Origin: an uncultured Bacilli bacterium
GTDB taxonomy: Bacteria; Bacillota_I; Bacilli_A; RF39; UBA660
Assembly: GCA_944358115.1 (NCBI GenBank)
Contig: CALVQH010000001.1
Coordinates: 5,263 to 69,262 of the forward strand
Reading direction: 5' to 3'
Length of the DNA stretch: 64,000 nucleotides
Made by a program: the position numbers and the translations under genes. This document shows positions 30,249 through 48,314 of the stretch, in pieces; position 1 is the stretch's first letter, and every line of letters starts with the position of its first letter. Below the pieces are notes generated by a model. The model worked only from the letters and a program-made list of their open reading frames with translations. It was not told where the DNA came from and did not search any database.

Positions 30249-30377
30249 ATTTAACCTCTTTCTATCCTCCTAATGATAACATAAAAAAGTATGAAATTCA
30301 ATTGCTTATCACCAAGTTCTATGTTATAATGAATTAAATTGATAAATATTTTTTGGCATGAAAGTAGGGATACTAGA

Positions 30378-32621
30378 ATGAACACAGAAGAATTAAGACA
30401 AACATTATTTGAAATGATTGAGGAAGGAAGAAATTTATCACTTTCTGAAACAGAATTAGTTCCTCATACGGAAGTAAGAGTAAAAAAGGGTAAGACACAA
30501 GATTTTTTAAATTTGGCAAAAGAGTATTATCAAAGACAAATAAAAGAAGAAGAAGCCTTAAATTATGTTTTAAAAGATTTAAAAGAACCGGAAGAAGAAA
30601 ATCTATTAGAAGATAAGGAAAACAATATATATAAAAAGGATTTTCAAAAATTAGAAGAACTAAATAAAAGTTTAGAATTAAATGCGAAAGATAGAGCAAA
30701 ATATCAGAAAGCCAAAGACGATCTAAGTAAAAGAGCAGAACAAGATCCTGGAATCTGGAGTGAGATAAGAAATCTTCAAGATTTAATAAAATCCTTAGAA
30801 GATGAAAAAAGAGAAATACAAAATAATATTGCTAAAATAAAAGATGAGATTAATAATCGTGTAAAAGCTTTAGTAGAAGAAAGAATGAATACTCTAAGAG
30901 AACGCTATCTTGCTTCTAAACCCAAAGATCATGAGACCGGTTATGATGATGCTTTTATTTTAAAAGAAGATAAAGAAGAATATGATGATTTATATTTATT
31001 ATTAAAAGTAATCGAAAATGCAAGGGAAGACCTTCCTTTGATAAATATTGATAATCTTATATGTGTAAACCCTCATCAAGAAGCAACCGCTCACATATTA
31101 ACCTCAAGACTCTCAATATTAAAAAGTTTAAATCCAGAAATAAAGCCATTAAAAAAGCCCCAACTATTGGAATTAAACGAAGAATTGACAAAAGAAATTG
31201 CAATGGAATTAGCAACACTAATTAAACATGCTAAAGATCACCCTGAAGAACCTTTAGCCGAAGGCAAAGAAGTATTAGCAAGTGATTTAGAAGAGTATAA
31301 TTTACTAGCAAAACAATTTGAAATATTGACCATGGTTTATGATACGGATACCTTGACAATGATAGGAAAGGCCAAAATACCAATTGAAAAAGAAGAAGAA
31401 TACAAACGTGTTTGCACGAAACTAGAAGCATTAAGAAAATTAAAGGAAGAAGCAAATGCTCACACTGAAAAAATAGAACCAACGGAAGGAAAAGGAAAGA
31501 AAAATCCCGCAAGCAAGTTAGAACATAAAGATACAAAAGAAAACAAAAATTTACCAGTAAAAGAGCAACTAAAAAGAAAAGCAGTAAAAATGATTCGCAA
31601 GGCAAAGAATCAAGAATGGTGGCAGAAAAATGGTAAAAAAGTAGTTGGTGTTGGTTTATCTCTAGCTGTTGCAGCTTATTCTCTTACCACACTTGCTCCT
31701 ACCGTTATTTATGCAACCAGCTGTTTATCTTTAGCAAATCCAGCTTTAGCAGGAGCTATTAATAGCTTTAATGCTAGTTTAATTAATGGACTAGGTCTTT
31801 CACTAGGATCTCTAAACTTAAATATTGCCGCAGCGAATGTAGGAGCAGCCATGCTTACCAGTTTAGTGAAATTAGGCCTCATCGGTGGAGGACTTGCCGC
31901 AGCAAACAAAATTATCAAAACGGAAGAAATGCAAAAACTACCTGATCCTGAAAGAAAAACACTTACACAAAAATTAATAAATTTAGGTGATCAAATCATT
32001 GGTAAAACAAAAGAAGTAGCTTCCACTCTTACTGATAAAGTATCTACCTTGACTGAAAATCTGGCCTATGCTACAGATGGCCCAAACATCAATTTAGTAA
32101 ATGAAGGCATTAAAGCAAAAATCGAGGCGGATAGCAATATTGAGTCTTTAGATGATGATGCAACATTTAAGGAAATACAAGAAGGGGTAACAAAGCAAAT
32201 CGCAGAACAAGAAAGTAAGCTAGAAGAAGAAGCGCAAAAAAGAAAAGCCATTGAAGATCGAATTAATGAAAGATTTAATAGTATTAAGCATGATGAAGCA
32301 GCAATTTATATCAAACCTACTAATATTGCCCCTCCAAAAGTGGAAGAAAAACTTACCCCACCGGTAATTAAACTTCCATCTGATGAAGAAATCATGCAAT
32401 CAATTAGTACAGAAAATCTAAATTTAGCGCGGATAGATAATTATTTAGAGGCAATGCAAGAAAATGATTTTATGACTGCTCGTAATCTTCAAAGTCTCAT
32501 TCTAGGTGAAACTGGAATCAATGTTGGCGAATATGATATAAAGGAAGAAGCGGAAATAAACCGCTTGAGGGAAGATATCTTAAATGCTACAAATAATAAA
32601 GAAGAAAAGAGGACTAGGTAA
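30378..32621 (+). CDS. Large coiled-coil protein with central Gly/Ala-rich hydrophobic segment
   Basis: K/E-rich heptad-like N- and C-terminal halves. The central ~100 aa (VVGVGLSLAVAAY...GLIGGGLAAANKII) is hydrophobic and low-complexity. ATG at 30378 behind a GGGA RBS. Confidence 0.4.
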   Translation: MNTEELRQTLFEMIEEGRNLSLSETELVPHTEVRVKKGKTQDFLNLAKEYYQRQIKEEEALNYVLKDLKEPEEENLLEDKENNIYKKDFQKLEELNKSLELNAKDRAKYQKAKDDLSKRAEQDPGIWSEIRNLQDLIKSLEDEKREIQNNIAKIKDEINNRVKALVEERMNTLRERYLASKPKDHETGYDDAFILKEDKEEYDDLYLLLKVIENAREDLPLINIDNLICVNPHQEATAHILTSRLSILKSLNPEIKPLKKPQLLELNEELTKEIAMELATLIKHAKDHPEEPLAEGKEVLASDLEEYNLLAKQFEILTMVYDTDTLTMIGKAKIPIEKEEEYKRVCTKLEALRKLKEEANAHTEKIEPTEGKGKKNPASKLEHKDTKENKNLPVKEQLKRKAVKMIRKAKNQEWWQKNGKKVVGVGLSLAVAAYSLTTLAPTVIYATSCLSLANPALAGAINSFNASLINGLGLSLGSLNLNIAAANVGAAMLTSLVKLGLIGGGLAAANKIIKTEEMQKLPDPERKTLTQKLINLGDQIIGKTKEVASTLTDKVSTLTENLAYATDGPNINLVNEGIKAKIEADSNIESLDDDATFKEIQEGVTKQIAEQESKLEEEAQKRKAIEDRINERFNSIKHDEAAIYIKPTNIAPPKVEEKLTPPVIKLPSDEEIMQSISTENLNLARIDNYLEAMQENDFMTARNLQSLILGETGINVGEYDIKEEAEINRLREDILNATNNKEEKRTR

Positions 32622-36270: not shown

Positions 36271-37425
36271 ATGAATTTAAATGATTTAAAAGTAAGCGGT
36301 ACCAACCAAATAGAATTAAACGATTCTCTAAAAACATCACTATTAAGTCTAAAAATATCATTAAATGAAAGTACCCAAATCCCTAGTAATAACGAATTAA
36401 CTATTTATGTCGATACAAGTTCTACTCCAACCGAAAATAGAAAAACTTATACATTTCAATTAGATAATGCTTTATCTATAGGAGACGAATTTATTATGGA
36501 ACCAGTTATTACAGATAAAAATATTGAACTAAAAGCATATGTGAAAAGGAGTACAAATGATATCGAAGAAATAGAATATCAAAATATTTTATTATTTGCA
36601 GGAACAAACTATATCTATACCAATTATGAAAATGCTACTATAGATATAATGTATCCTAAAAATAATGATTTAGTAAAATATTATTTAAATAACATTTTAT
36701 ATAGTTTAAATAATAAAAATAAAATACTTAGTTTAGATGATATTTATTTCAAAGATGCTTTTACTGAGGTAGATGATAAGTTGAATGCAGCTTTAAATAA
36801 TTTAAGCATTGATTGCCTTACATCCAATAATAACAAATTTAGTTTAGATAGTGATGGTAATTTAACAGTTAATAGCCTAACAACTACTGTTTCATCATCA
36901 GCAGATTTAGATTTTAATGAAATTTATCCAATTGGCTCTGTTTATTTAAGTGTTAATTCAACAAATCCAAGTGTTTACTTTGGAGGAACTTGGGAACAAA
37001 TTAACGGTTATTATCTATATGCTGGAAATACTAATAATACTGGTGGTAGTAGTTTAACAGGAGAAGCATCTGGAAATACAGGATCTACAACATTAACTGC
37101 AAATCAAATTCCAAGCCATAGCCATTCAATTCCTTCACTAAATGGTACGGCCTCTTCGAATGGATCCCACACTCACAATATCGGCGCTGATTTTGATGGA
37201 GGGGCCGGAAGTGCACGTTACACTGTTCATTCAAGAGGAACAAGTGGAGCAGGATATTTAATGGCAACGTCTTCTTCTGGAGCACATACTCATAGTGTAA
37301 GCACAAATGCAAGCAATACAGGTTCATCTGGAGGTACATCAAGTCATACACACTCATTAAATAATCATACTCACACAATTAATCCACCATTTTATAGTTT
37401 ATTTGTATTTAAAAGAACCGCTTAA
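36271..37425 (+). CDS. Phage tail-fibre-like protein with HxH metal-binding fibre tip
   Basis: IYPIGSVYLSVNS...GGTWEQI plus five HxH repeats (SHSHSI, SHTHNI, AHTHSV, SHTHSL, NHTHTI) like the T4 gp37/gp12 needle. Gly/Ser/Thr-rich. Confidence 0.6.
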   Translation: MNLNDLKVSGTNQIELNDSLKTSLLSLKISLNESTQIPSNNELTIYVDTSSTPTENRKTYTFQLDNALSIGDEFIMEPVITDKNIELKAYVKRSTNDIEEIEYQNILLFAGTNYIYTNYENATIDIMYPKNNDLVKYYLNNILYSLNNKNKILSLDDIYFKDAFTEVDDKLNAALNNLSIDCLTSNNNKFSLDSDGNLTVNSLTTTVSSSADLDFNEIYPIGSVYLSVNSTNPSVYFGGTWEQINGYYLYAGNTNNTGGSSLTGEASGNTGSTTLTANQIPSHSHSIPSLNGTASSNGSHTHNIGADFDGGAGSARYTVHSRGTSGAGYLMATSSSGAHTHSVSTNASNTGSSGGTSSHTHSLNNHTHTINPPFYSLFVFKRTA

Positions 37426-37509: not shown

Positions 37510-37875
37510 ATGAAAAATATTAAAGGCTACGTAAATATGAAAACTGATTTAAACCTTATTCTTTTAAGAATACAATTTTTAGAAGAAAAAGAAAAGCAAA
37601 TAAATAAAGAAAAAGTATCTCTTGAAGAATTAAAACAAAAATTAACAAATATTTTAAATCAAACGGAAGAAAAATTGAAAGAGTTAAAAGGGATAGACAG
37701 AGAATTGTTTTATGAAATAATGGTAAAAGGAACCAATGTAACAAGAGCAGTAGATAAAGTATCAATTACATATGATGTTGATCCATCAACGATTTGGAAG
37801 TATTACTATCCTAAAATAAAAGAAGACATCAAAAAATTAGAAAAAGAAATAATGTCTAGCGAGATTCTAGTATAA
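37510..37875 (+). CDS. Small coiled-coil hypothetical protein
   Basis: ORF only; lies between the fibre-like gene and the RHS gene. Confidence 0.3.
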   Translation: MKNIKGYVNMKTDLNLILLRIQFLEEKEKQINKEKVSLEELKQKLTNILNQTEEKLKELKGIDRELFYEIMVKGTNVTRAVDKVSITYDVDPSTIWKYYYPKIKEDIKKLEKEIMSSEILV

Positions 37876-37905: not shown

Positions 37906-40900
37906 ATGAAAGAATTAAAACATCTTCGTAAACAAAATGAAAAACAATTCTTAAATGATGATGGGTCTATTTCCCTATATCTCTATAACAATGATATTCA
38001 TTATTTAAAAAATGGTGAATATCTAGAAATTGATAATACACTCGTTGAGGAAGAAAATAACATCATTAATAAAGAAAATAATTTTCATACACGTTTTACG
38101 AAAGATACAAAAACAAATTTATTAGTAGATATTACCAAAGATAATTATTATCTAAAAATTTATTTAATGAAATCAAAAAATAATGCAATGAATATGAAGA
38201 AAAATAAAAACAATATAAAACTAGAAAATATCTTAGAAGATATAGATATTGATTATCATGTAATATCGACACAATTAAAGGAAGCTATTATTTTAAAAAA
38301 TAAAAATAATATTCCTACCTCTTTATCTTTTAAAGTAGATACTAACCTAGATTTAGAAGTGGAAGAAAAGGGAAGTGTTCTAGCAAAAGATAAAGAAAAA
38401 CCAATTTTTGTAATTGCAGCACCTTTTATGAAAGATAATAAAGGAACATACAATTACAAGATAAAATACGATTTAAGTTTAAAAGATGATACGTATATCT
38501 TAAACTTAAATTTAGATCAAGAATGGTTAAATGAAGCAGAGTTCCCTGTAGTAATTGATCCAACAATTGTAAATCCGGACGAAGAAGATCCAGAAAATGT
38601 ATATGATGCATATATAAGCTCGAGTCTTCCTGATATGAATATGAATACTCACGAGGAACTATACGTTGGTTCGAATTCAACTAGAACAACAAGAACATTA
38701 TTAAAGTTTAAACTTCCAACAATTGGTACAGGATATGATATTGTAAATGCCACAGCGTATCTAAATAGCGAATTTATGTCTTTAAATGGTAAAACAATTA
38801 ACGTTCATGAGATAACTAACGATTGGAATGAAGCAACAGTTACTTGGAATAGTATCTATGATAAGTATAATTCAAAAATCGAAGAGTATTTTTATGAACA
38901 AAGAACGGTACAAAGTGAGAAAATATTCCCGTTCAATATTACCAATTTAGTCAAAAAATGGTATGCGGGTAATCCTAATTATGGCCTCATGTTAAAGTTA
39001 AATGATGAAACGCCAAATGATGACAATGATAGTTACATCTTTTATTCTAAAACTTATGATGGTTTAAATGAAACAGGATTAAGGCCTTATTTAGCCATTA
39101 CTTATCGTAATCAGAATGGCCTAGAGGATTATATGACTTATCAAACACAAGAATACACAGATGGTGCAAGCTATATCAATAATTTAACTGGTAATCTAAC
39201 CACTACATTCAATTTAAATGAAACAATAGGGGGTAAATATCCAATTGGTTTAAGTCTAGTTTATAATACGAATGATATGGTTTTAAATAATAACTATGGT
39301 TATCAATCTGGATACAAATTAAATTTACATGAAACAATAAAAGAAGTAACAATAGACCTAAATAATTACTTAGAATATATAGATGCTGATGGTACAATCC
39401 ATTACTTTCGAAATGAATTAGATGAAGAAGGAGAAAAAATTGATAATAAGTACATAGATGAAGATGGATTAGGCCTAAACGCTACAAAAGAAACAAATAA
39501 AGTAATAATAGAAGATATAAATAGTAATAAATATGAATTTTCTTTAAATAATAATATTTATTATTTAACCAAATTAACAAATACAAATAATGATAGTGTA
39601 ACAATAACATATGATACAAATAACCGAATCAATAAAGTAACAGATGCCAATAATTCTAGCATCAATATTACATATAATACAAATAATATGATTATTACCA
39701 GTGATAGCACAACAACAACAGTCAATTATACAAATAATAAAGTAACTAGTATAATAAGTAAAAATGGTACCACCAATTTTACTTATAATAATTATGGCTT
39801 AATTAGTAAAATTACCGATGTAAATGGATTAAGTAAAGCTTTTAATTATTATGATGTAAGTCCATATAAAATAAAAAAAGTAATAGAATATGGCTTAAAT
39901 GATGAAGAAGGAGCTTCTCTAGAATTTGAATACGGCTTTTTAGTTACAAGAGTAAAAGATAATAAGGATCGATATAATACCTATATTTTTAACGAACAAG
40001 GAAATACAATTGGTTTTACGAATTTAGATGAAGAAGCAAATTTAAATAATGCTTATGGAAAAGGTGTAGTTTATGAAAATACCACAATTTATAAAGAAAA
40101 TAATGGTACCTATTTTGAAGATATAAATCGAGCAGGAAATAAATTGAAAAATGAAATATTAGCAGTTAAATACACGAAAAATTTAATTAAAAATAGTAGT
40201 TTTGAAGATGCAGAAACATTCTTTATTGGAACTAGAACAACGGAAGAAAAAAGAACTGGAAGTTATAGTTTAAAATTTTCTGATTATTGCTATTTTGAAG
40301 ATCCATCTCTTCCGCCGCGAGGAAAAAATTATACTTTTAGTGGATACTTTAAAAATGATAAAACCTTAACCATGAGCTTAGAAAGAAGAGGATTAAATAA
40401 AACGGATACTTTAGATATAATATCTATTCCTCCAAATGAAGATTTTACAAAATATAGCGTGACGGGTGATTATCCTTCTTCTGAAGAAGAAGGCGGATAT
40501 ATTTCAGTAACGATAACTTCAAATGAAAAAGGAACAGCCTATTTAGATGATGTACAACTTGAAGAAGGAGAAATTGCTAATTATTATAATATGTTAGAAA
40601 ATGGTGATTTCCATGATGGATTAACTGGATGGAATGCAAGTGCCTATGATCGTGAAGGAAATAGTATTAATAATGTAGCAAGTGTAGTAACATTAGAAAA
40701 TGGCGTAAAAGCTTTAAAAATAGCTTCTAATCCTGATTTAGATATTGCTGTTTCCACTACTTTAAAAGTAAATGGAATTGGTGATTTATCGGAAGATAGA
40801 ATAGGAGACTTATATAATTTATCATTCTGGTATAAAAACGAAGGATTACCAAAGGGCGGAACAGGAATGGAATATAGTAATTCTGTATTATTAAGCTTTT

Positions 40901-43900
40901 ATTATACCAACGTACCTGAAGGTGAAGGGTACGGAATTGATCCTATTGGTTTAACTTCTCATAGTAATGAATGGCAATATTTCTCAGCTCCATTCCCAAC
41001 AGATAGTTTATATAATTATGATACCATCGCTTTAACCATATTATCAAATTATAATGCCAATAACTTATATATTACCAATATTTCTTTATCAAAAGATATA
41101 GAACAAAATTATAATTATCATAATAGTGAAACTGGTAATTTAGAGGGAATTAGAAACATGGATAGTTCTCATGCTAGTTTCACTTATGATGAAAATAATC
41201 AATTAACAAGTATGTTTAATCCATTAGGTAATAACTTTAAATTTGAATACGATAATGTGGTAACAGATCGTATATTAAAAGGAATATCACCATCAGGAAT
41301 ATCGAATGAAATTTTATATGATGAATTTGGTAATCCTAAAAAAACAATCATCAATAATGTCAATCCAGATCAAGATATTATGGATGGTAAAACTTATTAT
41401 ATTCGTTTAAAAGGTTCACAAGAATATTGGGATAGTAATTTTATAACAAATGAGATTTTATTAAAAGAAGATAATTGTAGTCATGATACTTACACTCTTT
41501 TAAAAGAGGGTGAATACTTCCGAATAAAAAGTGGGAATGAGTATGTAACACTCATAAATGATTCAATTGGTTTAACCAAGTTAATGACTGATGATTCTTT
41601 GTTCAGATTTTTCCTCCAAAACAACAATAGTTACATCATCATTCCCAAAACCAAAGATAATACATTACTAGAACACAATCTAGCAAATGTAAATGGTAAA
41701 ATTTCTTTAAAAACAAGTGATACCAAAGAATATGAAGAGCAATTTTATTTTGAAGATATTGATACGCAATTGTTTATTGAATCAAAAGCGGAATATACTG
41801 AAGATGGAAAGTTTGTTACCCAAACAATCGATTCTTTAGGCAAAGTTACATCTTATGATATTAATACCACCAATGGTTTAACTAATAGTATTACTGATGC
41901 AAACAACATAACAACTTACTATACTTATAATACTAAAGATCAAATAACCAAAGTAAAGAAAGAAAACAAAGAAGTAAACTATGATTATAATAGCAATAAT
42001 TTACTATCAAAAATAACTTCAAATAACAAAGAATATAACTTTACTTATGATAATTTCTTAAATTCCAAACAAATAAAAATAGGAGACAATATTACTCTTA
42101 TTACTAATAATTATGAAAATAATAATGGGAATCTTCTATCAAGTGTTTATGGTAATGGTGATACATTTAGTTACACTTATGATGAACTTGATAGAATTAA
42201 AACAATGACAAATGATGCTAGTACCTATACATATCATTATGATAATTTGGGCAATTTAGCTAAAATAACAAGTATAAGTGAAAATTATAATTATTATTAT
42301 GACTTATCTAATAGGATTAGCAAATACCTAGTCAATAACTTTAATATTGAGTATGACTATGATTCGAATAATAATATACTTAAGAAAGAGTATACATTAA
42401 ATGATAAAGAAACAGTTACTTTTGAATATAACACCGATGATGCAATAACCAAAGTAACATTCGATAATAATAATTTAAATTATGCTTATGATTATCTAGG
42501 AAGATTAACTAGTAAAGATATAAATGGCAATCAAAAGATAGAGTATACATACATAACAAATGGTAATAAAACTTCTACTGTATTAAAATCCATGAAAATA
42601 AATAATGATTTATATGAATATTATTATGATCATCTATATAATATCACAGATATTTATTTAAATAATAAATTAATTAATCATTATGAGTATGATAATTTTA
42701 ATGAACTAATTAAAGAAGATAGCTATAGTTTAAACAAAACAATAAGATATACTTATGATAATGCTGGAAACATATTAAAGAAACAAGAATACGAATTAGA
42801 TACTTATAATTTATTACATACAGATACTTATGAATATAATAATGTTAATTGGGAAGGCCAATTGACAAAATATAACAATGAATCAATTACTTATGATGCT
42901 ATAGGTAATCCATTAACCATAGGAAATAAAACACTAACTTGGGTAAATGGTAGACAACTAGCAAGTTATACCGATGAAAGTCTAAATATTTCTTATACTT
43001 ATAATAAAGATGGAATAAGAACAGAGAAAGTAATAAATAATACAAAAACTAATTACTTTACAGAAAATAATAAGATAATATTTGAACAAACAGGAAATAA
43101 TATGGTATACTATATACGAGATGAGGAAGGAAGTTTAATAGGATTTAAATATAATAATACACTTTATTATTATATAAAAAACATGCAAGAAGATATCATA
43201 GGAATAACGGATAGTAATTATAACTTAGTATGCAGTTATGAATATGATTCATGGGGAAAACTAATATCCATTAAAGATAATAATGGAAACATTATTACTA
43301 ATACATCTCATATAGGTTATATCAATCCATTTAGATATAGGTCATACTATTATGATAATGAAACAAAGTTGTATTATCTAAATAGTAGATACTATAATCC
43401 AGAATGGGGTAGATTTATTAATGCAGATAGATTTATAAGCACAGATACAGGTATAATTGGCTTCAATATGTATGCTTATTGTAATAATGAGCCAATATCA
43501 AGAAAAGATTATAGTGGAAGTTTCTTCGGACTAGTTTTTGGAATGTTTGCAGTTACAGCTGGAATTATTCTTGGTGCAGAGATTATTGATAATAATAATA
43601 AAAAACAAAATAAAAAAGCTAAAAAAGAAATAGAAGAAGTGCAAAAAAAACACAATGTTTGTCCAATAGAAGAAAATAAAAATTTTAAAGAAACTTTAAA
43701 AACTAATGCAAAAAAAGTTCAAAATGATACTCAAAATATGAATTATATAGAAAGACTAAACTATTTAAGAGAAAATGCAAATGATGGTCAAAAATTCGAT
43801 TTAAAACTATTTACAAAAGATACAATATTTTATGACGGTATGTATATGGAACCACAAGATATCGGTAACTATCACTTTGGGTACATAGGTAGAGCTGCAG

Positions 43901-44070
43901 GCATTCAAACTTGGGTTTTATTAAAGGGTGCCTCAGTAAATCAAATAAAGAAAATGAATTGGGAAGTATTTAAAAATTGTTTTACTACATCTTTCTGCGA
44001 CGATCCTAGAGATCAATATTTTATAAAAATGGGAGCGATAGCATATGATAAAGAACATAAAAATAAATAG
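37906..44070 (+). CDS. RHS/YD-repeat polymorphic toxin (2054 aa) with DNRLRE-like N-terminal domain and variable C-terminal toxin domain
   Basis: Dozens of YD repeats (YTYD.NGN., YDxxGRL). Canonical RHS core end RYYNPEWGRFINADRF followed by NMYAYCNNEPI. N-terminal DAYISSSLPDMNMNTHEELYVGSNS...LLKFKL matches the DNRLRE domain. No signal peptide. A TM helix (FFGLVFGMFAVTAGIILG) follows the core. Confidence 0.85.
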   Translation: MKELKHLRKQNEKQFLNDDGSISLYLYNNDIHYLKNGEYLEIDNTLVEEENNIINKENNFHTRFTKDTKTNLLVDITKDNYYLKIYLMKSKNNAMNMKKNKNNIKLENILEDIDIDYHVISTQLKEAIILKNKNNIPTSLSFKVDTNLDLEVEEKGSVLAKDKEKPIFVIAAPFMKDNKGTYNYKIKYDLSLKDDTYILNLNLDQEWLNEAEFPVVIDPTIVNPDEEDPENVYDAYISSSLPDMNMNTHEELYVGSNSTRTTRTLLKFKLPTIGTGYDIVNATAYLNSEFMSLNGKTINVHEITNDWNEATVTWNSIYDKYNSKIEEYFYEQRTVQSEKIFPFNITNLVKKWYAGNPNYGLMLKLNDETPNDDNDSYIFYSKTYDGLNETGLRPYLAITYRNQNGLEDYMTYQTQEYTDGASYINNLTGNLTTTFNLNETIGGKYPIGLSLVYNTNDMVLNNNYGYQSGYKLNLHETIKEVTIDLNNYLEYIDADGTIHYFRNELDEEGEKIDNKYIDEDGLGLNATKETNKVIIEDINSNKYEFSLNNNIYYLTKLTNTNNDSVTITYDTNNRINKVTDANNSSINITYNTNNMIITSDSTTTTVNYTNNKVTSIISKNGTTNFTYNNYGLISKITDVNGLSKAFNYYDVSPYKIKKVIEYGLNDEEGASLEFEYGFLVTRVKDNKDRYNTYIFNEQGNTIGFTNLDEEANLNNAYGKGVVYENTTIYKENNGTYFEDINRAGNKLKNEILAVKYTKNLIKNSSFEDAETFFIGTRTTEEKRTGSYSLKFSDYCYFEDPSLPPRGKNYTFSGYFKNDKTLTMSLERRGLNKTDTLDIISIPPNEDFTKYSVTGDYPSSEEEGGYISVTITSNEKGTAYLDDVQLEEGEIANYYNMLENGDFHDGLTGWNASAYDREGNSINNVASVVTLENGVKALKIASNPDLDIAVSTTLKVNGIGDLSEDRIGDLYNLSFWYKNEGLPKGGTGMEYSNSVLLSFYYTNVPEGEGYGIDPIGLTSHSNEWQYFSAPFPTDSLYNYDTIALTILSNYNANNLYITNISLSKDIEQNYNYHNSETGNLEGIRNMDSSHASFTYDENNQLTSMFNPLGNNFKFEYDNVVTDRILKGISPSGISNEILYDEFGNPKKTIINNVNPDQDIMDGKTYYIRLKGSQEYWDSNFITNEILLKEDNCSHDTYTLLKEGEYFRIKSGNEYVTLINDSIGLTKLMTDDSLFRFFLQNNNSYIIIPKTKDNTLLEHNLANVNGKISLKTSDTKEYEEQFYFEDIDTQLFIESKAEYTEDGKFVTQTIDSLGKVTSYDINTTNGLTNSITDANNITTYYTYNTKDQITKVKKENKEVNYDYNSNNLLSKITSNNKEYNFTYDNFLNSKQIKIGDNITLITNNYENNNGNLLSSVYGNGDTFSYTYDELDRIKTMTNDASTYTYHYDNLGNLAKITSISENYNYYYDLSNRISKYLVNNFNIEYDYDSNNNILKKEYTLNDKETVTFEYNTDDAITKVTFDNNNLNYAYDYLGRLTSKDINGNQKIEYTYITNGNKTSTVLKSMKINNDLYEYYYDHLYNITDIYLNNKLINHYEYDNFNELIKEDSYSLNKTIRYTYDNAGNILKKQEYELDTYNLLHTDTYEYNNVNWEGQLTKYNNESITYDAIGNPLTIGNKTLTWVNGRQLASYTDESLNISYTYNKDGIRTEKVINNTKTNYFTENNKIIFEQTGNNMVYYIRDEEGSLIGFKYNNTLYYYIKNMQEDIIGITDSNYNLVCSYEYDSWGKLISIKDNNGNIITNTSHIGYINPFRYRSYYYDNETKLYYLNSRYYNPEWGRFINADRFISTDTGIIGFNMYAYCNNEPISRKDYSGSFFGLVFGMFAVTAGIILGAEIIDNNNKKQNKKAKKEIEEVQKKHNVCPIEENKNFKETLKTNAKKVQNDTQNMNYIERLNYLRENANDGQKFDLKLFTKDTIFYDGMYMEPQDIGNYHFGYIGRAAGIQTWVLLKGASVNQIKKMNWEVFKNCFTTSFCDDPRDQYFIKMGAIAYDKEHKNK

Positions 44071-44620
44071 AAAGAAAATTGTTATTGCTGGTATTCTAAT
44101 TGTATTAATAGCGTTATTAATAATTCCAATAATAGTTATTATGATACTTTTTGTTGATGGCCTTAAAGAGAATGCTATTGATAAAAAGGCTATGGAATAT
44201 GAAAGTGAAGAAAAGCGCTTAGAATACTTTTTAGAAAATGAAGAATACCTTAATAAATTAGCAAACTATTTTATAGAATATCCAGAACTTGATAGAATAG
44301 GAAAAAACATTTGGTGTTCTAATGCCGATGAACCAACATATGAATTGAATGATATAACAATTTGTACTTATAAAAAATTAGAAAATCTACCAATTAAAGA
44401 TATTGTAGAAATATATAAAAAAACAAACCTTTCAATTGTTGGTAGAAGGAATGACTGTATTGCATTTTATTTATACATAACAACATATCATGATGTTTGC
44501 TATAATTATTATTTCACTTCTTCAAAAAGTGAATATATAAAATATGATTATGGGATAATTGAAGAAAATGAAATAAATGAGAATTGGAGTAGTATGTTTT
44601 CAAATATTCCTTATGATTAA
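44045..44620 (+). CDS. Putative cognate immunity protein (N-terminal TM, 191 aa)
   Basis: Overlaps the last 26 nt of the RHS gene, the typical toxin-immunity arrangement. TM helix IVIAGILIVLIALLIIPIIVIMILF. Confidence 0.5.
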   Translation: MIKNIKINRKKIVIAGILIVLIALLIIPIIVIMILFVDGLKENAIDKKAMEYESEEKRLEYFLENEEYLNKLANYFIEYPELDRIGKNIWCSNADEPTYELNDITICTYKKLENLPIKDIVEIYKKTNLSIVGRRNDCIAFYLYITTYHDVCYNYYFTSSKSEYIKYDYGIIEENEINENWSSMFSNIPYD

Positions 44621-44838
44621 AAACAAGCAATATTAGAACTAATGTAATCAGTTTACACTAGTTCTTTTTATATATTTGAATAAACAGATAATAATATGGC
44701 ATAAGAATAAAATGCGTTAGCGTATGATGAAAATTCGCAAACATGCCTTTTGATTAAAGAATAAAAAAATTCAATATCATAGTACAATCGCCAACTCGTG
44801 TGTTCTCTTTTTTTCATACAATAAATAGGAGGAAGAAT

Positions 44839-45234
44839 ATGGAACATATATATAATGTAATCTCTTATTTATTGGGTGGAATTGATGCACCGATCATTGT
44901 CTTATTAATTACCATGGTCTATGTCTATCTAACGGGTTGGTGCAAAGTAATATTTTGCCATAAAATGAATAAATTAGTAGGCTTAAAAGGTATCATTCGT
45001 GATCTTGGCTATTTAATGATTGTGTCTTTATCGGTATTATTAGATCGTTTAATGGGAAGTGCGGAAGCGATAAGAACAATCGTTATTTATTTCTTTGTTG
45101 CCCATGAAGGTTTATTAATTTTAAAATGTTGGTGTAAAATGGGACTTCCTCTACCACAAAAAATATATAACACGCTAGAAAATTTATTAGGAGAGGAGGA
45201 ATCTGATGGCAACTCTACTGAACGTGAAGAATAA
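44839..45234 (+). CDS. Holin (phage_holin_4_1 / TcdE-like family)
   Basis: Three TM segments. The conserved YL.G.D.P...LL..M..DY.TG and GL.LP pattern of the family. RBS TAGGAGGAAG before ATG 44839. Confidence 0.65.
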   Translation: MEHIYNVISYLLGGIDAPIIVLLITMVYVYLTGWCKVIFCHKMNKLVGLKGIIRDLGYLMIVSLSVLLDRLMGSAEAIRTIVIYFFVAHEGLLILKCWCKMGLPLPQKIYNTLENLLGEEESDGNSTEREE

Positions 45235-45958
45235 TGTCTTAAAGAGGGGAAAGCATTACTTAACAAGTGACTATAAAACAAGAAATGAATCGAGAAGCAC
45301 CCATAATGGCATGGATTTGGTAGGACAAAATGGAGTAGATGATATTGTAGCCATAGAATCGGGAACCGTAACTTATACTGGTTATGATGCAAGTGGCGGT
45401 GGATACTGGATATCGATTACGACAAATGGGATAGAGCATCGTTATTTTCATTTAAAAAAAGGATCACTAAAAGTAAAGAAAGGCGATCGTGTAACCAAAG
45501 GTGATGTCATAGCAACCATGGGTGATTCTGGAAATGCTACGGGAAATAATCTTCATTTTGCTATTTATAAAAATGGTTATATTGACCCAAAACCATATTT
45601 AATGAATGATAATCCTTTTAATGTAGAAAGTAATGATGCTTACACCACATTTATTCGTGATTTACAAAAGGCAATCGGTACCAATGTAGACGGGATTGCT
45701 GGACCGGAAACACTATCAAAAACCCCAACCATATCAACAAGTACCGGCTGGAATCATGCCGCTGTTAGACCTTTACAAATTTATTTACAAAACTTAGGAT
45801 ATGATTTAGGAAGTAAAGGTGTAGATGGTCAGTTTGGAAAAGATATGAAGGCCTGTATTAAAAAGTACCAAAAAGATGTAGGTTTAGCATCAAAATACCA
45901 AGATGGTATTGTAACTGCTAAAATGTATACTTGGCAAAAATTATTAAAATTAAATTAA
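45206..45958 (+). CDS. M23 peptidase (LytM-type endopeptidase) with two peptidoglycan-binding repeats; endolysin-like
   Basis: HNGMDL...D...HLHFAI M23 signature. C-terminal PG_binding_1-like repeats (VDGIAGPETL, VDGQFGKDM). Overlaps the holin gene. Confidence 0.75.
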   Translation: MATLLNVKNNVLKRGKHYLTSDYKTRNESRSTHNGMDLVGQNGVDDIVAIESGTVTYTGYDASGGGYWISITTNGIEHRYFHLKKGSLKVKKGDRVTKGDVIATMGDSGNATGNNLHFAIYKNGYIDPKPYLMNDNPFNVESNDAYTTFIRDLQKAIGTNVDGIAGPETLSKTPTISTSTGWNHAAVRPLQIYLQNLGYDLGSKGVDGQFGKDMKACIKKYQKDVGLASKYQDGIVTAKMYTWQKLLKLN

Positions 45959-47945: not shown

Positions 47946-48314
47946 ATGGATAAGTTAGGATATTCGAAGATAGAGATATTAGTTGTAATTGTATTATTAG
48001 GCATTGTAGCATTTATAACAATCAATAAAACATCATATGCTTTTGCAATTGATAAAAATGAAGCCGTAGATGAAGTTAAATATTTAATAGAGGTGCAAGC
48101 AGAAGATTATGCTTTGGCAAATACAACTCTTTTTGAGGAAACAAATACAACTTATATAAGTGTAGATGATTTAATTGAAGCAGGATACTTAATTGGTAAT
48201 GAAGATGGCTTATTAACCGATCCAACCGATTCTTCTAAAAACTTTAATGACAAAAAAGTAAAATTAGAGTATGATGCTTCAAATAATAATGTAACCGCAA
48301 CGGTTGTCGATTAA
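47946..48314 (+). CDS. Type IV pilin-like / competence pseudopilin-like protein
   Basis: Class III signal LG|YSKIEILVVIVLLGIVA with Glu at +5 of the mature N-terminus. Confidence 0.55.
   Translation: MDKLGYSKIEILVVIVLLGIVAFITINKTSYAFAIDKNEAVDEVKYLIEVQAEDYALANTTLFEETNTTYISVDDLIEAGYLIGNEDGLLTDPTDSSKNFNDKKVKLEYDASNNNVTATVVD

What the first reader, a model, noticed from the sequence alone, without database searches (positions are those of the whole stretch)
43417..44620. Unclassified C-terminal toxin domain with a membrane helix after the RHS core, plus overlapping immunity candidate
After the canonical RHS core end (RYYNPEWGRFINADRF...NMYAYCNNEPI) comes a predicted TM helix (FFGLVFGMFAVTAGIILGAEII) and a K-rich linker. 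The ~150-aa domain (FTKDTIFYDGMYMEPQDIGNYHFGYIGRAAGIQTWVLLKGASVNQ...CDDPRDQYF) is one I cannot assign to a known toxin fold. The downstream 191-aa TM protein overlaps the toxin stop by 26 nt, which is typical for immunity genes.
Basis: partly seen in the sequence, partly recalled or inferred. Interest (0 to 1): 0.6.

Follow-up and report, generated by a model that had tools for sequence, protein, structure and literature searches.

The report
RHS toxin tip (Ntox44) with immunity gene
The end of this giant RHS protein is a member of a catalogued but never characterised bacterial toxin family (Ntox44) paired with a membrane-anchored protector gene, and the comparative evidence suggests the toxin attacks the cell envelope from outside instead of cutting RNA as databases say.

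Summary
A 2054-aa RHS protein (37906..44070) ends its conserved core at PISRKDYSG. After that come a hydrophobic G/A-rich helix, a K-rich linker and a ~95-aa conserved domain. A 191-aa ORF (44045..44620) overlaps the stop by 26 nt.

The toxin domain is not unclassifiable. It matches Pfam Ntox44 (PF15607; 52 bits, cutoff 24) and has all three family motifs. No solved structure resembles its model.

The region 43053..44698 is a classic swappable cassette. The same toxin and 191-aa gene occur as orphan cassettes behind differently tipped RHS genes at the same locus in related gut Bacilli MAGs.

The 191-aa protein has no Pfam family and matches only 22 clusters among 1.84 billion representatives. 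It has a basic N-terminus, one membrane helix, and a confidently modelled α+β domain predicted to face outside.

All 20 Ntox44 neighbours examined across phyla are membrane- or lipid-anchored (the 191-aa family, DUF5412, a multi-TM family). Stand-alone Ntox44 proteins carry Sec signals, and one is fused to peptidoglycan-binding domains. I infer an envelope-directed enzyme, not the predicted RNase.

The helix is lineage-wide, not Ntox44-specific. This is a new member of a known kind, with a useful re-reading of the family.

The parts
37906..44070 (+). RHS/YD polymorphic toxin gene, 2054 aa. It has no N-terminal signal peptide. It carries a DNRLRE carbohydrate-binding-like domain (aa 233-399), RHS repeats, an Rhs-associated core and an Ntox44 tip.
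43243..43518 (+). Rhs-associated core (TIGR03696, aa 1780-1871). It ends in the demarcation motif PISRKDYSG (43492..43518), a variant of PxxxxDPxGL, which is the presumed autoproteolytic release site.
   Evidence: E=6.6e-17. The lineage-wide 'NNPxxxxDxxG' tails are listed.
43053..44698 (+). Swappable cassette unit. It consists of a ~350-nt RHS core-end homology block, the toxin tip, the immunity gene and a terminal hairpin. The whole unit is 87-88% identical in DNA to orphan cassettes in L001 and L007.
   Evidence: blastn. The L007 main RHS body stops matching at window 43421.
43522..43587 (+). Hydrophobic G/A-rich helix FFGLVFGMFAVTAGIILGAEII at the very N-terminus of the released tip. It is a pre-toxin membrane helix.
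   Evidence: KD19 = 2.03. Modelled as a helix. Present on 10 of 13 Ntox44 tips and 8 of 17 other tips of this lineage.
43588..43770 (+). Lysine-rich helical linker (KKQNKKAKKEIEEVQKK...) between the helix and the toxin domain. The KAxKEIxxVQxK part is conserved in homologues.
43771..44052 (+). Ntox44 (PF15607) toxin domain. Invariant residues are D-L-K, Q-D-x-G-N-x-x-x-G-Y, R, Q, D-x-P-R, Y, G-A, and Y-D near the C-terminus; the closing D of the DxxxD motif is near-invariant (N in P0012).
44045..44620 (+). Immunity candidate, 191 aa. It has a basic N-terminus, one membrane helix (about aa 12-37) and an α+β domain predicted to face outside. It matches no Pfam family. Invariant residues are R58, Y61, C91, C107, F141, Y155 and W181.
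44635..44665 (.). 13-bp-stem hairpin just after the immunity gene. It looks like a terminator. The ~70-nt element recurs at the end of each cassette in related arrays.
44800..45234 (+). Phage_holin_4_1 holin. The likely real start is ATG 44839, preceded by AGGAGG. It follows the RHS array in most related loci.
45206..45958 (+). Peptidase_M23 + PG_binding_1 endolysin-like gene, overlapping the end of the holin gene.
36271..37425 (+). Gp10_C / phage tail-fibre-like gene directly upstream. It is found upstream of the RHS gene in L003, L013, L014 and L017 as well.
37510..37875 (+). 121-aa coiled-coil protein between the tail-fibre-like gene and the RHS gene. It is conserved in L014 and has no family hit.

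Best explanation
Window 43053..44698 is a standard exchangeable toxin/immunity cassette fused to the end of a chromosomal RHS polymorphic toxin of an uncultured human-gut Bacilli lineage.

**Shown here.**
- The tip is a member of the Ntox44 family.
- The tip and the 191-aa gene travel together as one unit.
- In related strains the unit sits as an orphan behind other RHS tips.

**Inferred mechanism.**
1. The RHS shell encloses the tip and cuts it off at the PISRKDYSG motif.
2. The protein has no signal peptide. It is probably released with the help of the adjacent holin and endolysin.
3. The N-terminal DNRLRE domain, and perhaps the tail-fibre-like partner, bind a neighbouring cell.
4. The G/A-rich helix at the new N-terminus of the tip inserts into the target membrane.
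5. The Ntox44 domain, held on a lysine-rich linker, then acts as an enzyme at the outer face of the membrane or on the cell wall (peptidoglycan or its lipid-linked precursors). It does not act as a cytoplasmic RNase.
6. The 191-aa protein is a type II membrane protein. Its outside-facing α+β domain binds and blocks incoming Ntox44 from sister cells.
For: **Family and structure of the toxin**
- Pfam Ntox44: 52.3 bits against a cutoff of 24. All 13 aligned relatives hit only Ntox44.
- The motifs are conserved.

**Cassette behaviour**
- The L007 RHS body is 87% identical to the window's in protein, and its DNA match to the window ends at 43421.
- The L007 orphan cassette matches window 43053..44698, with the same 26-nt overlap.

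**Immunity**
- The 191-aa family follows Ntox44 in the window, L010, L001, L007, L011 and L012.
- In L036 a member sits in a toxin-less poly-immunity array with an Ntox44 3' remnant just upstream.

**Outside-facing action**
- All 20 distinct Ntox44 neighbours examined start with a basic stretch followed by a hydrophobic anchor or a lipobox.
- Only 7 of 15 neighbours of other tips in the same arrays do so. Fisher p = 0.0003.
- A GIY-YIG nuclease tip in L013 has a soluble partner.
- DUF5412 is linked to Ntox44 in Paenibacillus, Tumebacillus and Clostridium botulinum, with DUF5412-like proteins in Pedobacter and Saprospiraceae.
- Stand-alone Ntox44 proteins carry Sec signals in Paenibacillus, Tumebacillus, Bacillus toyonensis and phage Bloom. 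Coral homologues do too (PMC8162421).
- The C. botulinum p6CSt protein is 2x PG_binding_1 + Ntox44.
- The toxin Cys pair C155/C161 is lost together in P0019.

**Release**
- The holin or endolysin recurs after the arrays.
- Precedents for holin-dependent release of large signal-less toxins are PMC10847048 and PMC10516005.
Against: - No biochemical activity is known. Pfam and the literature label Ntox44 a predicted RNase (PMC3482391 and PMC12165300). That label is itself only a prediction.
- The same kind of helix sits on a GIY-YIG nuclease tip, which must reach the cytoplasm. The helix could therefore serve translocation instead of tethering.
- Topology is inferred from charge distribution only.
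- The toxin model is of moderate quality (pLDDT 73.6), and the fold gives no hint of chemistry.
- The holin link is by position only. A hairpin separates the two transcription units.
- A distant homologue of the 191-aa family (L038 and L039) has no Ntox44 nearby.
- The proteobacterial sample is small: two plasmid loci.
Confidence: 0.6

Rival explanations
1. Ntox44 is what the databases say, an RNase acting in the target cytoplasm. On this reading the hydrophobic helix and K-rich linker carry the domain across the membrane. The membrane-anchored partner intercepts the toxin at or in the membrane, or its domain faces the cytoplasm.
For: - This is the Pfam and Zhang 2012 prediction.
- The same helix type precedes a GIY-YIG nuclease tip in L013, and that tip must enter the cell.
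- T6SS and LXG contexts exist for the family.
Against: - All 20 partners have signal-anchor or lipoprotein N-termini, while nuclease-type tips in the same arrays have soluble partners.
- Small Sec-secreted stand-alone forms and the PG_binding_1 fusion have no translocation module.
- No experiment supports RNase activity. Ma 2017 tested only other tips, according to PMC6730261.
Confidence: 0.22
2. The tip kills by damaging the membrane itself. The glycine-rich helix and amphipathic basic linker form pores or depolarise the membrane, as glycine-zipper toxins do. The Ntox44 domain would be an accessory targeting part.
For: - GxxxG-type spacing occurs in the helix (GLVFG, AGIILG). It recurs in homologues.
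- Membrane-embedded partners are typical of pore-former immunity.
Against: - There is only one hydrophobic helix.
- 3 of 13 Ntox44 tips lack it (L011, L012, L023), and stand-alone Ntox44 proteins have none, yet these keep membrane-anchored partners.
- The Ntox44 core has about 20 invariant, mostly polar residues, which is typical of an active site.
- The helix occurs on unrelated tips.
Confidence: 0.1
3. The 191-aa ORF is not an immunity protein. It would instead be an accessory factor for the toxin (chaperone, export or release factor), or an unrelated membrane protein.
For: - A distant homologue occurs without any Ntox44 nearby (L038 and L039).
- No direct binding data exist.
Against: - It is tightly coupled to the toxin: the same 26-nt overlap, co-transfer within the cassette, and 75-99% identical copies that always lie after Ntox44.
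- It is replaced by other small anchored families (DUF5412, the multi-TM family) after diverged Ntox44 tips, which is the expected pattern for immunity.
- A member lies in a toxin-less poly-immunity array.
Confidence: 0.06

Closest known systems
Ntox44 / 'Bacterial toxin 44' (Pfam PF15607; Zhang et al. 2012, PMC3482391)
   Same: The HMM match is well above threshold. The DxK, GNxxxG and DxxxD motifs are present. The predicted fold is mostly helical. The domain sits at the C-terminus of an RHS polymorphic toxin.
   Different: The family's published function, RNase, is a prediction only. Here every partner protein is extracytoplasmic, which argues for an envelope target. Zhang et al. listed no immunity family for Ntox44. 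This work finds three: DUF5412, the 191-aa family and a multi-TM family.
Gram-positive RHS/WapA toxins (B. subtilis WapA; S. suis WapA, PMC12704120)
   Same: Shared features are the YD/RHS shell, the Rhs-associated core with an autoproteolytic demarcation, variable tips with downstream immunity genes, truncated orphan cassettes, and a DNRLRE domain in the N-terminal part.
   Different: There is no Sec signal peptide, no LysM or sortase partner and no PT-TG pre-toxin motif. Instead there is a hydrophobic pre-toxin helix, a tail-fibre-like gene upstream, and a holin with an M23 endolysin downstream.
Colicin M / Cmi and TelC / TipC (lipid II-degrading toxins with membrane-anchored, outward-facing immunity; from my own knowledge)
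   Same: The logic is the same. An enzyme acts at the outer face of the cytoplasmic membrane, and a small immunity protein is held there by an N-terminal anchor.
   Different: No sequence or fold similarity was detected. The substrate of Ntox44 is unknown.
Holin/endolysin ('type 10') release of large toxins: Yersinia entomophaga Tc toxin (PMC10847048), C. difficile TcdE (PMC10516005)
   Same: A large signal-less toxin, built on an RHS-type shell as in Tc toxins, is encoded next to a phage-type holin and endolysin.
   Different: Here the cargo would be an interbacterial RHS toxin in a Gram-positive-type gut bacterium. Dependence on the holin is untested.

Membership tests
Ntox44 (PF15607) | Profile match above Pfam's gathering score | tested here: met
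   52.3 bits against 24, E=8e-14, covering profile positions 4-104 of 104. All 13 clade members also match.
Ntox44 (PF15607) | Conserved DxK, GNxxxG and DxxxD motifs (Zhang 2012) | tested here: met
   The motifs are F-D-L-K, D-I-G-N-Y-H-F-G and D-D-P-R-D. D95, K97, G117, N118, G122 and D162 are invariant and D166 is near-invariant across 17 sequences. The motif definition is in PMC3482391.
Ntox44 (PF15607) | All-alpha fold | tested here: inconclusive
   The AlphaFold model is mostly helical with one short hairpin (pLDDT 73.6). There is no solved family member to compare with.
Ntox44 (PF15607) | RNase activity (predicted, not a demonstrated family property) | not testable with these tools
   Indirect evidence points away from it: partners are extracytoplasmic, stand-alone forms carry Sec signals, and one protein is a PG_binding_1 fusion.
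RHS/YD polymorphic toxin | RHS/YD repeats plus an Rhs-associated core that ends in a PxxxxDPxGL-type demarcation | tested here: met
   RHS_repeat E=1e-27 and TIGR03696 E=6.6e-17. The motif here is PISRKDYSG, a variant in which the proline after D is lost, as it is throughout this lineage.
RHS/YD polymorphic toxin | Variable tip with adjacent immunity gene, plus orphan cassettes that share the core-end homology | tested here: met
WapA-type (Sec-exported, wall-anchored) RHS | N-terminal Sec signal peptide and a wall-anchoring module | tested here: not met
   The N-terminus MKELKHLRKQNEKQF... has no hydrophobic stretch. It is conserved in homologues. No LysM or wall-anchor domains were found.
DUF5412 (PF17428), the commonest Ntox44 partner | Profile match of the 191-aa ORF | tested here: not met
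   There is no hit at E<=1. hhalign of the 191-aa family against the DUF5412 set gives probability 15% over 10 columns.
Holin/endolysin (type 10-like) toxin release | Holin and endolysin genes adjacent to a signal-less cargo | tested here: met
   Phage_holin_4_1 E=2.6e-25; Peptidase_M23 + PG_binding_1. The pair recurs after RHS arrays in L001, L007, L010, L011, L013, L020 and L022.
Holin/endolysin (type 10-like) toxin release | Toxin release depends on the holin and endolysin | not testable with these tools
   This needs genetics in a cultured host.

The most novel reading that the evidence does not exclude
Ntox44 would not be an RNase but a new-fold enzyme that attacks the bacterial envelope from outside. 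It would be neutralised by at least three unrelated families of outward-facing, membrane-anchored immunity proteins: DUF5412, the 191-aa family found here and a multi-TM family. In these gut Bacilli it would be delivered by a signal-less RHS shell that is released through a dedicated holin/endolysin pair, and tethered to the target membrane by a pre-toxin helix.
Probability: 0.4. Interest if true: 0.7.

Novelty: new member of a known kind. Interest (0 to 1): 0.42.

Why it matters
Ntox44 is widespread. It occurs in T6SS, T7SS and RHS toxins, in phages, and in genes transferred to corals. It has been reported as enriched in highly transmissible gut strains (bioRxiv 10.1101/2025.07.08.662037). 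It is labelled a predicted RNase throughout the databases and papers I read, and I found no experimental test of that label.

If the family really acts on the cell envelope, those annotations are wrong. A new antibacterial enzyme fold and its inhibitors would then become directly testable. DUF5412 is currently a domain of unknown function.

The locus also offers a candidate for how large RHS toxins without signal peptides leave Gram-positive-type cells.

For the finding as written, the main message is more modest. It is an ordinary, already catalogued kind of toxin/immunity cassette.

Tried and rejected
- **Sequence search of the tip and of its core profile against PDB sequences:** nothing below E=0.2.
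- **Foldseek of the toxin model against PDB:** best E=1.7.
- **Foldseek of the immunity model against PDB:** best E=0.04, with poor TM-scores.
- **Scan of viral contigs with the toxin alignment:** no relative found.
- **Weak Pfam hits of the 191-aa ORF and the tip:** DUF6709 (E=2e-4, below cutoff, N-terminal helix only) and Furin-like_2, UPF0239 and DUF1104 on the tip were rejected as low-complexity or helix noise.
- **Homology among the three partner families:** hhalign found none.
- **The idea that the helix is special to this toxin:** rejected by the control on other tips.
- **The 'bacteriophage' contig MT835902:** it carries an N-terminal homologue, but turned out to be a high-GC contig with a signal-peptide RHS and no phage genes, so it says nothing about a phage origin.
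- **The claim that Ntox44 had been characterised as a nuclease (PMC9635880):** traced to Ma 2017. The review PMC6730261 says only other tips were tested there. The original paper is not held.


Full report
**1. What is in the sequence**

A single ORF runs from 37906 to 44070 on the + strand and encodes 2054 aa. It carries these domains:
- RHS/YD repeats (PF05593, E=1e-27).
- A DNRLRE domain at aa 233-399 (NF033679, E=2e-28).
- An Rhs-associated core at aa 1780-1871 (TIGR03696, E=6.6e-17).

The finding's start, 43417, falls inside the core at 'INADRF'. The core ends with NMYAYCNNEPISRKDYSG. This is the lineage's version of the PxxxxDPxGL demarcation. Other tips in related arrays end in 'NNPxxxxDxxG'.

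The tip then has three parts:
- A 22-residue G/A-rich hydrophobic stretch, FFGLVFGMFAVTAGIILGAEII. Its 19-residue Kyte-Doolittle mean is 2.03.
- A lysine-rich stretch.
- A conserved C-terminal domain.

The 191-aa ORF starts at ATG 44045, 26 nt before the RHS stop. A GGGAG lies 9 nt upstream. A 13-bp-stem hairpin follows it at 44635..44665.

**2. What the toxin domain is**

The domain is not unclassifiable.
- It matches Pfam Ntox44 ('Bacterial toxin 44', PF15607) at 52.3 bits against a gathering score of 24, over profile positions 4-104 of 104.
- Zhang et al. 2012 defined this family as all-alpha with DxK, GNxxxG and DxxxD motifs, and listed no immunity family for it (PMC3482391).
- All three motifs are present here, and their residues are invariant or near-invariant among 17 relatives. 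The motifs are FDLK, DIGNYHFG and DDPRD.
- An AlphaFold model built on that alignment has pLDDT 73.6 and pTM 0.71, with the core at 85-95. It is mostly helical. The hydrophobic stretch and K-rich linker form one long helix.
- No solved structure resembles it, by sequence or by Foldseek (best E=1.7).

So the family is known and the fold is unsolved.

The 'RNase' label is a prediction.
- Later papers repeat it.
- One paper lists Ntox44 as characterised by Ma et al. 2017 (PMC9635880).
- A review of that work says only Rhs-CT1, CT3 and CT5 were tested, and that the others are putative (PMC6730261).
- The coral cell atlas calls the family poorly characterised (PMC8162421).

**3. It is a swappable cassette**

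The closest relatives of the tip are 322-aa proteins, 91% identical. Each consists of about 140 aa of RHS core end followed by the same tip.

They lie in metagenome contigs that share the window's downstream genes (holin, NfeD, Band_7, UDG). There they are orphan cassettes behind other tips, and each is followed by the 191-aa gene with the same overlap (L001, L002 and L007).

DNA comparison defines the unit:
- The L007 main RHS body matches the window only up to 43421.
- The L007 orphan matches 43053..44698.
- The ~350-nt core-end block (43078..43435) recurs at each cassette in L001 and L007.
- The ~70-nt hairpin element (44629..44703) recurs beside cassettes: before the Ntox44 cassette in L001, and after the main RHS cassette and after the Ntox44 cassette in L007.

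In this window the Ntox44 cassette occupies the expressed position, and no orphans follow it.

Relatives come from uncultured gut 'Bacilli' or 'Tenericutes' MAGs. One contig, Bacilli bacterium HGM10802 (L010), is identical over the tip and the immunity gene. The rest of the window holds chromosomal housekeeping genes.

**4. The immunity candidate**

- The 191-aa protein has no Pfam or NCBIfam family.
- Word-indexed search finds only 75-99% identical copies.
- A full HMMER scan of 1.84 billion representatives finds 22 clusters. The complete proteins among them are mostly ~185-200 aa (a few hits are short fragments and one is 304 aa). The 16 aligned members each have a hydrophobic N-terminal helix, in most cases preceded by basic residues, and invariant R58, Y61, C91, C107, F141, Y155 and W181.
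- Its model is confident (pLDDT 92.3). It shows one long helix that includes the membrane segment, a second helix, and a β-sheet domain. It has no significant PDB neighbour.
- The family follows Ntox44 in the window, L010, L001, L007, L011 (toxin 61% identical) and L012 (51%).
- One distant member (P0047) lies in a toxin-less array of immunity-like genes. A 25-aa Ntox44 3' remnant sits just upstream.
- Another distant member (P0053) has no Ntox44 nearby.

This pattern, which includes poly-immunity arrays, is what Zhang et al. describe for immunity genes.

**5. Where the toxin probably acts**

More diverged Ntox44 tips are followed by other small proteins:
- DUF5412 (PF17428) in L003/L015, L014, L018, L019, L020 and L023.
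- A ~195-aa multi-TM family ending in ENWYY in L013, L017 and L021.

hhalign finds no homology among the three families.

The linkage extends well beyond this clade:

| Organism or element | Ntox44 form | Neighbour |
|---|---|---|
| Paenibacillus sp. FA6 | Sec-signal, stand-alone | DUF5412 |
| Tumebacillus | Sec-signal, stand-alone | DUF5412 |
| C. botulinum plasmid p6CSt | 2x PG_binding_1 + Ntox44 fusion | DUF5412 lipoprotein |
| Pedobacter, Saprospiraceae | polymorphic toxin tips | anchored DUF5412-like proteins |
| Pantoea and Enterobacter plasmids (the latter next to Hcp) | 130-aa Ntox44 | overlapping anchored ORF |
| B. toyonensis plasmid | Sec-signal | the multi-TM family |
| P. larvae phage Bloom | Sec-signal | not established |

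All 20 distinct partners begin with a basic stretch followed by a hydrophobic anchor or a lipobox. This topology puts the rest of the protein outside the cytoplasm.

As a control, only 7 of 15 partners of other tips in the same arrays are anchored. Fisher p = 0.0003. A GIY-YIG nuclease tip in L013 has a soluble 349-aa partner.

Taken together, the following argue that Ntox44 acts outside the cytoplasm, on the wall or the outer membrane face:
- The partner topology.
- The Sec-secreted stand-alone forms.
- The secreted coral homologues.
- The peptidoglycan-binding fusion.

I put this at about 0.6. It is an inference from context, not a demonstrated activity. I found no paper on DUF5412.

**6. 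The helix**

A hydrophobic helix directly after the core end is present on 10 of 13 Ntox44 tips. It is also present on 8 of 17 unrelated tips of this RHS lineage, including the GIY-YIG one. It is therefore a lineage-wide pre-toxin element, not a feature of this toxin.

Its role is open. It could tether the tip to the target membrane, help translocation, or pack the tip inside the shell. S. suis WapA uses a different pre-toxin region, PT-TG (PMC12704120).

**7. Surroundings**

- The RHS protein has no signal peptide, and its N-terminus is conserved in homologues.
- Upstream lie a Gp10_C tail-fibre-like gene and a 121-aa coiled-coil gene.
- Downstream lie a Phage_holin_4_1 holin and an M23 + PG_binding_1 enzyme.
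- This layout recurs in diverged loci.
- Holin/endolysin release of large signal-less toxins has precedents (PMC10847048 and PMC10516005).
- Here it is only a positional inference, and a hairpin separates the two units.

**8. Verdict**

The finding is a genuine toxin/immunity cassette of a well-known kind. Its toxin domain belongs to a catalogued family, so the claim of an unclassified toxin fails.

What remains of interest:
- An uncatalogued immunity family with a confident new-looking fold.
- A consistent body of contextual evidence that the 'RNase' label of Ntox44 is probably wrong.
- A possible holin-linked release route for signal-less RHS toxins.

Noticed in passing
window 36271..37425, 37510..37875 and 44800..45958: The signal-less RHS gene is bracketed by a phage tail-fibre-like gene (Gp10_C) plus a 121-aa coiled-coil gene upstream, and by a holin plus an M23/PG_binding_1 endolysin downstream. 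The layout recurs in diverged gut Bacilli loci. It suggests lysis-cassette ('type 10'-like) release of an interbacterial RHS toxin.
   Followed up: partly
window 44629..44703 (hairpin 44635..44665); L001 2296-2364; L007 5738-5808: A ~70-nt element with a 13-bp-stem hairpin follows the immunity gene here and recurs beside cassettes in related arrays. It may act both as a terminator and as the right-hand homology for cassette exchange.
   Followed up: partly
L026, L028, L030, L029, L025, L031, L035: DUF5412 (PF17428), a domain of unknown function, or DUF5412-like anchored proteins, sit next to Ntox44 genes in Bacillota and Bacteroidota. TM-anchored ORFs of similar size with no DUF5412 profile hit sit next to Ntox44 in Pseudomonadota. 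DUF5412 appears to be the main Ntox44 immunity family, and I found no paper that mentions it.
   Followed up: yes
L030 2341..3348 (Clostridium botulinum plasmid p6CSt): A 335-aa protein annotated 'peptidoglycan-binding protein' is in fact 2x PG_binding_1 fused to Ntox44. A DUF5412 lipoprotein follows it. This is an endolysin-like architecture for a supposed RNase.
   Followed up: yes
L013 6131..6652, and other tips listed: Unrelated tips of the same RHS lineage also begin with a G/A-rich hydrophobic helix right after the core end. They include a GIY-YIG nuclease tip with a soluble partner. I have not seen this pre-toxin helix module described.
   Followed up: partly
L036 1..4709: This is a toxin-less array of immunity-like genes. 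It holds a member of the 191-aa family and a relative of the GIY-YIG tip's partner. A 25-aa remnant of the Ntox44 3' end lies just before the 191-aa homologue.
   Followed up: partly
L032 2106..2693 (Paenibacillus phage Bloom) and 13 related P. larvae phages: Temperate P. larvae phages carry a Sec-signal Ntox44 gene, annotated 'bacterial toxin 44' or 'polymorphic domain RNase'. A small multi-TM ORF lies beside it.
   Followed up: no
window 47946..48314: A 122-aa ORF has a prepilin-like N-terminus (LGYSKIEILVVIVLLGIVAF) and no Pfam hit. It is possibly a pseudopilin.
   Followed up: no
window 30339..32621: A 760-aa ORF just upstream of IleRS has no Pfam family at E<=0.001.
   Followed up: no
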